Of a stretch of DNA of 64,000 bases, positions 32,374 to 34,945 are shown one piece after another. The position numbers and the translations under genes are program-made. This stretch comes from Octopus vulgaris (Eukaryota), in contig OX597823.1 in assembly GCA_951406725.2 (NCBI GenBank), forward strand, positions 107,136,001 through 107,200,000, given 5' to 3'. The notes under the pieces were generated by a model. The model made no database searches. It worked only from the letters and a program-made list of their open reading frames with translations, and was not told the origin of the DNA. The first letter of the stretch is position 1, and each line of letters opens with the position of its first letter.

Positions 32374-32450
32374 CCTATCTCTCCCTCTCTATATATATAT
32401 ATGTGTGTGTGTATGTGTGTGCGTGTGTGTGTGTTAAGTAGCTTGCTTAC

Positions 32451-34536
32451 GCGCATGCGTTAGTTTTACTTCTGCACGGGTGTTGTCAAGACGTTGCTTT
32501 GCAACGGTCTTGAACAAAAGAACTGTGAAGGAGCAACTATAACGTAGGACGTTTGTTTGTTTTTTTTTTTGTTTTTTTTTGGGGGGGGGGTTCAGAGATG
32601 CTTTGTTGTTTATTGTCCATTTTTTTCGAACAAGAAATCCCCACTGGATTCCGGGGTATTTGTCTGCCTGTAGTTGCGCTAAATGTCTCACTTAGTTGTG
32701 AGAAGAGTGGTTTTGGGGGTGTATCCCGCCTCCAAAAGTTGTTAAATTTTTGTGAAAAAGTTTTCTGAATATTTACCAATTTGTGGTGGATTTTTTTGAA
32801 GCTGTATTCCTGCTACTGTGACTCTTTTCATTTTTGGAGTACCTTTGGAGTACCTTTTGACCAGGAGTACCGGTTGGCCGGAATCGTGTGTTGCCGTGTT
32901 TTGAAGTCTTCATTTTTTCTTTTTCTCTTCTTTGTCTTTCTGCTCTTCTTTGTCTTCCTTCGTACTGTTTTTTGACTTTGGTAGGACATTCGTTGTTTTT
33001 TTTTTAACTGTTTCCTGAACTTTTTCTTCAAAGCATGGCGAAGAACTTGAACACTGCATTGGAGTGGGAAATCATCCCACCCAAGCAATGGCTCAAAAAC
33101 CTAGAGGAAAGAACGGTGGTGTTGAGGACTTATTCTAAGTTACTCGACAACATCGCTGTCTTTCCTAAAACAGATATAGAAAATGAGTTAGCAGAGAATC
33201 TGCTAAGTATTAAGTTTAATTCCAAGGGTGCTAAATATGCAACGGTGTGGTTGCTATTTGACACCCCTGAGGTGGCTCGCCAATTTGCGAGCCAGCCCTT
33301 AGAAGGGGAAAAGATTCTGTTTCTTCCCACATATTGTGGGAAGAAATTAACAAGAGCTCGGGTTTATAGGCTGCCACCGGGCATTGAACCGGAATGGATA
33401 GAGGACACTATCCGCCGGAGTCTGAGTGGCAGCAGGTCCAAGCTTTTGAATGGGGAATTGTTGCCGGTAGCTGATTGGGTGGGATCAAAAGCAGTTTTGA
33501 CCCTATGGACCCAATCAGCCGTTAAAGATCTGGTATTTCCAGATTTTTTGAAAATGCCCGGTTGCAGGTACCTAGTGATACTTGAAGGACGCCCCCCACC
33601 ATGTGTCACTCGTGCCTGGAACCGGGTCATATTAAGAAGAACTGTCCCCAGGACCAAAGTAGAGTCCTGGAGCAGTTAATAAAAGTAGTACCCCCTCCTC
33701 CTTCAGAGGGAGAGATGGAGGCAGTCAAGTATGTGGAGACCTCCTTGAAAAAAGGGGAAAAAGGAAGAAGGTGGGTAAAAATGGTTGCCCACCGAAGGAC
33801 GCCAAGGCTGCGAGGAGGAGGGAAGATCCTCCGGATAAAGCGGAAGAACCACACCCTCTCGTTGCACAAGGGAGAAAAAAATGAAGAATGGGACATTGCC
33901 AGCGGTTAGTAGTACACTGCCGGCATGTCCTGAAACATCGTCGGTGGGAAACTGCAACCCCTCCCATTATGATGAAGGATGAATTTGTGATCTTCTTTCA
34001 TAAGGGAGGGGCTGTACAGAGCTTTGTGAAGAAGCTAGAGGGCCGGAGGGAAAGGGTCCTGTCCTGTACAGAAGACCCTGATGGGCCTCCGCGGGTAACT
34101 GCGGAGGTCATAATGGAAAATTATATGTTCAGAGTGGTAGGTTCCTTTCCCAAGGACCAATAGAGTTTTGCTTTCCGGGGCCCCGACTTAGAACTGCAGG
34201 ATTGCCTGCGGGAGGCAAGTTGCTTGGTCGGGGAGGAAAGGTAAGGAGCCTTAGTGCCTCGATTTGAAATTTTAATTTGTTATTTTTTGGTAAGAGGCTC
34301 AGCGCCTCAACTTGTAAGGACGATTGCGTCCATTCTTTGAACTTTGGTAAGAGGTTCAATACCTCATTTTGTATTGTTGAGAAAAAGGGGACAATGTTTT
34401 CGGGAAGCAGCAATGGGCGGGCGTTGTCTGCTCCCCACACCAACCATCTTTTCATTTTTTCATTCCATTATCATTTGTGTTTTTATCCAGCGGATTGCTA
34501 CATCTTTGCAAGGTTCTATGGCCAATTTATGAGATA
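32451..34536 (+). mobile_element. Non-autonomous ORF1-only (half-L1/Tx1-like) retroposon with 15-bp TSD, inserted into a family B SINE head
   Basis: The TSD aagta(g/a)cttgcttac lies at 32436-32450 and 34537-34551. The element has a T-rich 5' UTR, a single gag-like ORF with a CCHC knuckle, a structured 3' UTR, and no recognisable RT or endonuclease. Confidence 0.8.
33035..34163 (+). pseudogene. gag/ORF1-like nucleic-acid-binding protein with CX2CX4HX4C zinc knuckle, broken by at least two frameshifts
   Basis: Three overlapping ORFs (33035-33679, 33601-33909, 33888-34163) join into ~370 aa. Motifs are RVYRLPPGIEPEWI, YLVILEGRPP and CHSCLEPGHIKKNC, followed by a Pro/Lys/Arg-rich linker. This layout is typical of L1/Tx1-type ORF1. 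Confidence 0.75.
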
Positions 34537-34945
34537 AAGTAACTTGCTTACCAACCAAATGGTTCCGGGTTCAGTCCCACTGCATGACACCTTGGGCAAG
34601 TGTCTTCTACTATAGCCTCGGGCCGACTAAAGCCTTGTGCGTGGATTTGGTAGACGGAAACTGAAAGAAACTCGTCGTATATATGTGTGTATATATATAT
34701 ATGTGTGTGTGTATATATATATGTGTGTGTGTGTGTGTGCTTGTATGTCTGTGTTTGTCTCCCCAACATCGTTTGACAACCGATGGTACTGTGTTTACGT
34801 CCCCGTAACTTAGCAGTTCAGCAAATGAGACCGATAGAATAAGTACTTGACTAAATAAACAAAGAATAATTCCTTGGGTCAATTTGCTCGACTATAGGCG
34901 TTGCTCCAGCATGGCCGGAGTCAAATGACTAAACAACTAAAAGAG
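34537..34945 (+). mobile_element. Family B CORE-type SINE (downstream part of the interrupted copy)
   Basis: B box GGTTCAGTCCC, CORE-like CACCTTGGGCAAGTGTCTTCT, internal (TA)/(TG) and the tail ...gctccagcatggccggagtcaaatgact. Confidence 0.88.

What the first reader, a model, noticed from the sequence alone, without database searches (positions are those of the whole stretch)
32436..34551. Complete ORF1-only (gag-like) retroposon with 15-bp TSD, inserted into a SINE tRNA head
Seen: a 2086-bp insert is bounded by aagta(g/a)cttgcttac, and removing it restores a family B SINE head (...taagtagcttgcttac|caaccaaatggttccgggttc...). It contains a 584-nt T-rich 5' UTR, one ~370-aa frameshifted ORF with a CX2CX4HX4C knuckle, and a 370-nt structured 3' UTR. 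There is no room for RT or endonuclease, and no poly(A). Known: half-L1 (HAL1) elements encode only ORF1, and several Tx1 families target specific multicopy sequences. Inference: this is a protein-coding non-autonomous retroposon that supplies its own RNA chaperone and borrows ORF2 in trans, possibly with a preference for SINE/tRNA-like targets. I do not recall such a family being described in cephalopods but cannot verify that.
Basis: partly seen in the sequence, partly recalled or inferred. Interest (0 to 1): 0.78.

Follow-up and report, generated by a model that had tools for sequence, protein, structure and literature searches.

The report
Half-LINE parasites homing on one SINE
This is a decayed copy of a family of 2-kb jumping genes that encode only a predicted RNA-binding protein and land at one fixed base of a very common short repeat, likely by borrowing the copying enzyme of a full-length retrotransposon that uses the same site and the same tail signal.

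Summary
Observation confirmed, with corrections. The 2,086-bp insert belongs to a genome-wide set of ~2-kb elements with one ORF (predicted two RRMs plus a CCHC knuckle) and no ORF2. Young sister families have intact 409-427-aa ORFs, and the RRM region is under purifying selection (dN/dS 0.08-0.22 against the window copy). I found the likely helper: a 5.4-kb APE-RT-zinc-finger LINE of the L1/Tx1 type, with dozens of ~99%-identical copies, two with both ORFs intact. It shares the 3' tail hairpin and the exact insertion point in a tRNA-like SINE head (33,000 exact empty sites, 305 exact filled). Helper and ORF1-only units stack into mixed head-to-tail arrays. The ORF1-only proteins are only ~26-30% identical to helper ORF1, so this is no recent deletion. 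Corrections: the strict duplication is ~9-10 bp in young copies; the ORF spans ~403 codons; the 3' UTR is 292 nt and not globally structured. It works like HAL1, HeT-A and TRE5-A.2. I found no paper on a SINE-targeting LINE with ORF1-only dependents, but could not check Repbase or Dfam. The scan noted SINE/repeat-targeting Tx1-like LINEs in two other genomes, with no such dependents mentioned.

The parts
32436..32450 (+). Left target repeat (SINE head D-arm/anticodon-like region); strict duplication likely the first ~9-10 nt
32451..33034 (+). 5' UTR, 584 nt, T-rich; starts GCGCATGCG like sister copies
33035..33600 (+). ORF1 first frame: predicted tandem RRM-RRM region; 60-72% aa identity to six intact sister ORFs, 30% to helper ORF1
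   Evidence: fold from intact relative
33604..33645 (+). CX2CX4HX4C zinc knuckle, in a shifted frame
33646..34244 (+). Basic/low-complexity linker and C-terminal region of ORF1, broken by frameshifts and a premature stop at 34161-34163; terminal stop 34242-34244
34245..34536 (+). 3' UTR, 292 nt, no poly(A), not globally structured
34503..34536 (+). Tail motif shared with the autonomous helper; includes the 4-bp hairpin at 34512-34523 (two G-U pairs in this copy) and ends in an AATAAA-like junction
34537..34551 (+). Right target repeat
34552..34930 (+). Remainder of the host SINE (B-box-like GGTTCAGTCC, body, microsatellite, tail)

Best explanation
The insert is a decayed copy of an old lineage of ~2-kb retroposons that encode only an ORF1 protein and are likely copied in trans by the ORF2 enzyme of a sequence-specific L1/Tx1-type LINE that inserts at the same base of a tRNA-like SINE head. 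Shown: shared insertion point, shared ~35-nt 3' tail with a covarying hairpin, 5'-truncated copies, target duplications including off-target ones, mixed head-to-tail arrays, ORF1 homology, purifying selection. Inferred steps: (1) the element is transcribed from its own 5' UTR or from upstream, with a few target-like bases at the RNA 5' end; (2) its ORF1 protein coats its own RNA; (3) helper ORF2 binds the 3' hairpin/tail; (4) the APE endonuclease nicks the lower strand opposite GGT|AAGTAG and the RNA end ...GAAATA(A) primes there without poly(A); (5) the second strand is cut ~9-10 nt downstream; (6) each insertion leaves AAGTAGCTTG again at its 3' junction, so the site can be reused, building arrays.
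For: ORF1-only is the rule: 0 of 30 window-family loci carry a same-strand ORF2 hit within 1.5 kb; 44 of 44 young loci end in tail + target with no ORF2 between ORF1 and tail, and 42 of 44 show the 5' junction (one unit counted twice). Helper: APE (Pfam E 2e-12), RT (4.5e-28), zf-RVT (2.5e-9), ORF1 zf-CCHC; 29 of 30 top copies start at the target; 22 of 22 full copies have both ends at it and 2 of 22 have both ORFs open, 487-488 and 1,140 aa stop to stop. Shared tail: hairpin 89% paired, 5 compensatory cells, 0 of 500 shuffles as high, slid controls 8-57% paired. TPRT signs: truncated copies of 111, 140, 471 and 473 bp behind the SINE head among 30 junctions; off-target copies with their own duplications starting AAGTA (L011 14 bp, L012 9 bp). 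Selection: dN/dS 0.08-0.22 for window vs 6 intact ORFs, upper CI at most 0.35; 0.11-0.44 in 21 pairs of intact ORFs, 20 of 21 with CI below 1. Old lineage: 100% branch, ~1.5 changes per site, separating the 2-kb ORF1-only clade from 14 helper ORF1s (quick tree; on fewer rows).
Against: No experiment shows trans-mobilisation. Transcription is not shown. The window's own subfamily is old (nearest copies 83-85%), so today's young helper need not be the one that moved it. In that subfamily only 7 of 19 loci reaching the 3' region and 11 of 19 reaching the 5' region passed my SINE-junction score (background ~1%); some misses are decay or tandem neighbours, at least two are true off-target insertions. 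dS is above 1 in many pairs, so dN/dS values are rough, and the C-terminal region is weakly constrained or poorly aligned (0.18-0.86, most CIs near or over 1). Genome searches score only top candidates, so an autonomous family with a closer ORF1 could have been missed. Tx1 membership was not tested with named references. The hairpin has only 4 pairs and related sequences inflate covariation.
Confidence: 0.87

Rival explanations
1. One-off or recurrent internal deletions of the autonomous LINE, dead on arrival, with no lineage of their own.
For: Internally deleted helper copies do exist (L187, L196, L198, L200). The ORF is homologous to helper ORF1.
Against: No real DNA similarity between the window element and the young helper; 26-30% aa identity; many near-identical ORF1-only copies with intact ORFs; purifying selection between families; the deleted helper copies keep ORF2 fragments and helper-type ORF1.
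Confidence: 0.04
2. A composite SINE-plus-insert unit that retroposes as a whole using the SINE's own partner LINE, so the 'target specificity' is inherited from one founding insertion.
For: Most copies have SINE on both sides; some bases at the 5' junction are carried by the element; two window-family copies share the same variant 5' 15-mer (L003, L013).
Against: Off-target copies with their own duplications; varied 5' truncations behind an intact head; local target variants appear on both sides (L165, L025); many unrelated families and the helper use the same base; arrays mix families; SINE and helper share no tail.
Confidence: 0.04
3. The ORF1-only families are partners rather than parasites: like HeT-A Gag, their protein is supplied in trans and helps the helper's particle assemble or localise.
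For: ORF1 kept under selection over a long time; co-occurrence in arrays; HeT-A precedent (PMC5537684, passages seen).
Against: The helper has its own intact ORF1; selection is equally expected from cis use on the element's own RNA. This differs from the best explanation only in who benefits.
Confidence: 0.1

Closest known systems
HAL1 (half-L1) of mammals
   Same: Non-autonomous L1 derivative encoding only ORF1p, with several independent origins (PMC5753468, passage seen; Bao and Jurka 2010 not held, not read).
   Different: Here the ORF1 is type I (RRM + CCHC) not the vertebrate type II; insertion is sequence-specific; no poly(A); a helper-shared hairpin tail; tandem arrays. HAL1's poly(A) tail and dispersed insertion are recalled, not checked.
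HeT-A with TART/TAHRE (Drosophila telomeres)
   Same: Gag/ORF1-only element lacking pol, found in same-direction head-to-tail arrays with autonomous partners (PMC5537684, passages seen).
   Different: Those are added to chromosome ends and serve the host; here the arrays are internal, at one base of a dispersed SINE, with target duplications, and the helper is L1/Tx1-like.
TRE5-A.2 with TRE5-A.1 (Dictyostelium)
   Same: Lacks ORF2, mobilised in trans by TRE5-A.1 ORF2p, tied to tRNA-gene loci (PMC5633606, passage seen).
   Different: TRE5-A inserts ~50 nt upstream of tRNA genes by position; here insertion is at a fixed sequence inside a tRNA-like head. TRE5-A.2 is a variant of its helper; these ORF1s are ~70% diverged from theirs.
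Sequence-specific Tx1-clade LINEs: Tx1L in Tx1D, Tx1-Mar in Mariner-N4_AMi with SINEU, Keno, Kibi, Koshi, Dewa
   Same: LINEs that target other transposons or multicopy sequences, and non-autonomous riders (SINEU) sharing the target (PMC4494074, passages and sections 15 and 21; PMC3706591, passage).
   Different: In the passages I saw, listed targets are DNA transposons, LTR elements, snRNA/5S genes, microsatellites, satellites and a tRNA spacer, not a SINE head; SINEU riders are short snRNA-headed elements under 500 bp, not ORF1-coding families.

Membership tests
ORF1-only non-autonomous LINE (HAL1-like kind) | Single ORF homologous to a LINE ORF1 | tested here: met
   BLASTP E 3e-15 (window) and 9e-18 (L075) to helper ORF1
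ORF1-only non-autonomous LINE (HAL1-like kind) | No ORF2 across copies | tested here: met
   0 of 30 and 0 of 44 loci
ORF1-only non-autonomous LINE (HAL1-like kind) | Retroposes as its own family (multiple insertions, target duplications, 5' truncation) | tested here: met
ORF1-only non-autonomous LINE (HAL1-like kind) | Mobilised in trans by a partner ORF2 | not testable with these tools
   Inferred from shared target, tail and arrays
HAL1 proper (mammalian) | Vertebrate type II ORF1p (Transposase_22: coiled coil, RRM, CTD) | tested here: not met
   No Transposase_22 hit; model shows two RRM-like domains and a knuckle; types as in PMC5203782, passages
Type I ORF1p | At least one RRM plus CCHC knuckle | tested here: met
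   Predicted model of intact relative P0041 (residues ~11-200 mostly pLDDT 70-90); Foldseek top hits tandem-RRM proteins E 1e-4; VIA Z 7-9 for both halves; knuckle in sequence. RRM not detected by Pfam.
L1/Tx1 group (helper) | ORF2 with APE, RT and C-terminal zinc finger, closest to L1 ORF2p | tested here: met
   Pfam; solved-structure search L1 ORF2p E 1e-66 vs R2 E 2e-19
Tx1 clade (helper) | RT phylogeny groups with named Tx1 families | not testable with these tools
   No named Tx1 reference among the hits listed; no RT tree built
Tx1 clade (helper) | Sequence-specific insertion into a multicopy target | tested here: met
   29 of 30 and 22 of 22
tRNA-derived SINE (target) | tRNA-like head with A/B boxes | tested here: inconclusive
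   Best alignments to tRNA-Lys(TTT)-type genes among 25 distinct genomic tRNAs, z 4-6.5 vs shuffles (sample rich in Lys); no Rfam tRNA match; ARAGORN finds none in the window
Octopus OK SINE (name recalled, no call) | Sequence match to the published OK consensus | not testable with these tools
   Paper search returned 0; no Repbase/Dfam

The most novel reading that the evidence does not exclude
[quoted passage not shown] They keep, swap and recombine their own ORF1 because each particle must be coated by a matching ORF1 in cis, and this contest drives the helper's fast ORF1 turnover (50-75% identity between subfamilies while ORF2 stays mostly 75-93%). The result is HeT-A/TART-like mixed arrays away from telomeres, and a natural cargo system in which a ~35-nt tail directs 2-kb RNAs to one defined DNA sequence.
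Probability: 0.3. Interest if true: 0.8.

Novelty: new variant of a known kind. Interest (0 to 1): 0.62.

Why it matters
Why some non-autonomous LINEs keep ORF1 is open: HAL1 is extinct or inactive (recalled) and HeT-A is tied to telomeres. Here several young, intact ORF1-only families sit beside an intact young helper with one defined target, so cis versus trans use of ORF1 can be tested directly. It also adds a SINE head to the known targets of sequence-specific LINEs with far more cases than two or three, offers a sequence-specific APE-RT plus short tail signal as a candidate for targeted insertion work, and warns annotators: one relative is filed as a host gene in Octopus sinensis (P0042, LOC115225585).

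Tried and rejected
Pfam finds no RRM in the window or sister proteins. A search for longer (376-2000 aa) homologues of the first frame found none among 1,325 candidates (weak evidence). Global 3' UTR structure rejected. First hairpin count used wrong columns, redone. Window rows of the first dN/dS run were out of frame, discarded and redone. The '5' junction 44 of 44' line used too loose a pattern and was dropped in favour (42 of 44). Two independent origins for the 2-kb and 1.5-kb ORF1-only lineages are not shown: the constrained tree is not rejected (AU p 0.15); the careful treekit search did not finish. Expression: no RNA holder listed; contigs of runs only guessed to be RNA cover 29, 27, 28 and 23 of 30 bins of a young element and 6 of 30 bins in another, not used as evidence. 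Rfam scans of the SINE gave only microsatellite or chance hits. Bao and Jurka 2010 and the ORF1-type paper were not held. The L007 duplication (18+ nt, far from the element start) is ambiguous and not counted. Literature searches with no description of this system in the listings. The 2026 O. vulgaris repeat paper (PMC13282606; first third read, term search, one supplement table) lists 13 recently active and 80 total L1-Tx1 families but has no hit for 'target', 'ORF1' or 'non-autonomous'; its library, Repbase and Dfam could not be seen and may hold these families.

Full report
Observation. The insert and its flanking repeats are present as described: 15-mers at 32436-32450 and 34537-34551 differing at one base, 2,086 bp apart, followed by SINE sequence. 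Such a repeat is rare by chance (1 of 2,006 background 15-mers). The ORF starts at 33035; the knuckle lies in another frame.

It is a family. The window lies in a 2.8-Gb genome; named homologues come from Octopus sinensis, O. bimaculoides, O. vulgaris and Argonauta hians, so an octopod host is inferred. A DNA search gave 43 matches from 40 scored of 2,127 candidates, 73-89% identical apart from self. Several span the whole 2.1 kb with the same ends. None of the 30 fetched loci has a same-strand ORF2 hit in its 1.5-kb flanks. This subfamily is old and broken; none of those 30 loci holds a complete open ORF. Young relatives do: intact ORFs of 409-427 aa in families about 50-85% identical to each other. 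In 44 young loci (one unit counted twice) every unit ends in the tail followed by the target, none has ORF2 between ORF and tail, and 42 show the 5' junction. A second ORF1-only type of 1.5 kb with a 408-aa ORF also uses the site. Contigs from three other organisms cover all 30 bins of one young element, and in one of them single contigs bridge the stop codon into the 3' UTR and reach the tail-target junction; no contig spans the whole element.

One target. An exact 32-nt pattern for tail-end plus target plus SINE continuation matches 305 times, the empty site 33,000 times, reversed controls 0. The site lies between the A-box-like and B-box-like motifs of a head that aligns best with tRNA-Lys(TTT)-type genes among 25 distinct genomic tRNAs, though Rfam's tRNA model does not match it. 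Upstream of 30 sampled junctions are several families, including 5'-truncated copies of 111-473 bp directly behind the SINE head. In the window's own old subfamily the junction score was passed by 7 of 19 loci at the 3' end and 11 of 19 at the 5' end, against ~1% background. At least two exceptions are true off-target insertions with their own 9- and 14-bp duplications that still begin AAGTA. These, and local target variants seen on both sides, show independent insertions and reject a SINE-insert composite.

The likely helper. Some junctions lead into a 5.45-kb element with ORF1 (zf-CCHC) and ORF2 (APE, RT, zf-RVT), closest to L1 ORF2p among solved structures. Dozens of copies are 94-100% identical in ORF1; 29 of the top 30 begin at the target; 22 of 22 full-length copies have both ends at it and two have both ORFs open. 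Among 20 more diverged relatives ORF1 is 50-74% identical while ORF2 segments are mostly 75-93%; 18 of 20 carry same-strand ORF2 sequence and all have helper-type ORF1. Helper and ORF1-only families share only the last ~35 nt. That tail holds a 4-bp hairpin, 89% paired with 5 compensatory cells across 30 distinct tails, above all 500 shuffles and all slid controls (small helix, related sequences). The SINE's tail is unrelated to the helper's, so the SINE probably depends on another LINE.

Junction anatomy. In 42 singly inserted copies the first 9 positions of the flanking 15-mers almost always agree while positions 10-15 often differ by family. The strict duplication is thus about 9-10 bp, and each family's 5' end carries a few target-like bases. 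The 3' end reads ...GAAATA then AAGTAG, without poly(A). Because each insertion recreates AAGTAGCTTG behind its tail, the site is reusable: arrays of up to about ten units mix ORF1-only families and helper copies head to tail (L172-L177). Some intact ORFs are mosaics of two families (L149, L175), consistent with template switching or recombination (inference).

The protein. The window ORF is 30% identical to helper ORF1 over 106 aa (E 3e-15) and 60-72% to intact sisters. A model of an intact sister (mean pLDDT 56, but mostly 70-90 over residues 11-200) matches tandem-RRM proteins and RRM domains in both halves (Z 7-9). RRM plus CCHC is type I ORF1p (PMC5203782, passages). dN/dS over the RRM region is 0.08-0.22 for the window copy against six intact ORFs and 0.11-0.44 among 21 pairs of intact ORFs; high dS makes these rough. 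The C-terminal part is less constrained. In trees the 2-kb ORF1-only proteins form a fully supported clade on a branch of ~1.5 changes per site, apart from all 14 helper ORF1s sampled, with an O. sinensis 'gene' inside it. A separate origin of the 1.5-kb type is suggested but not shown (AU p 0.15).

Mechanism. Most likely target-primed reverse transcription in trans: own ORF1 coats the RNA, helper ORF2 recognises the tail, nicks the SINE head and copies the RNA. The anatomy, sharing and selection are shown; transcription, binding, nicking and trans use are inferred. Confidence 0.87.

Comparison and novelty. It works like HAL1 (PMC5753468), HeT-A (PMC5537684) and TRE5-A.2 (PMC5633606), and its helper behaves like sequence-specific Tx1 elements (PMC4494074); I saw passages or named sections of these, not whole texts. 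It is not HAL1 proper (ORF1 type differs), and Tx1 membership of the helper was not tested by phylogeny. Eight literature searches listed nothing describing a SINE-head-specific LINE with ORF1-only dependents; Repbase, Dfam and the 2026 octopus library were not visible and may contain the families under generic names. The scan's notes hold two SINE/repeat-targeting Tx1-like cases in other genomes, each on 2-3 copies, which I did not test. Verdict: real, a new variant of a known kind, interest 0.62.

Noticed in passing
window 38966-37967 (- strand): 5'-truncated 3' end of a sister L1/Tx1-type LINE (64% aa to the helper's ORF2 residues 969-1110) with a similar tail, sitting between (TATC)n runs: probably a microsatellite-targeting relative.
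   Followed up: partly
window 18570-17962 (- strand): Unrelated RT fragment, 25% to helper ORF2.
   Followed up: no
window 7608-7799, 45932-46327, 62740-62790 and others: Further fragments of the same SINE in the window.
   Followed up: no
L172-L177 (G000 C5:78.74 Mb, C10:101.17 Mb, C1:223.69-223.71 Mb): Long head-to-tail arrays of 2-kb units, many sharing one frameshift near codon 55-68; could be serial insertion or later tandem duplication.
   Followed up: partly
L017, L019-L021, L073 (G000 C2:151.9-152.4 Mb): Duplicated block in which a 3'-truncated window-family copy is followed by a 264-291-aa frame with C2H2 zinc fingers; its start looks RTE-like (recalled).
   Followed up: no
L179:3141-3240 and L009 oriented 2937-3241: Short non-coding units (about 85 and 290 bp) with the shared tail inserted at the same site: truncated copies or a SINE-like rider.
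   Followed up: no
L181-L200: Helper subfamilies change ORF1 and 5' UTR much faster than ORF2.
   Followed up: partly
P0042 (Octopus sinensis LOC115225585): Annotated host gene whose protein is sister to the window ORF in the tree; probably an ORF1-only element.
   Followed up: partly
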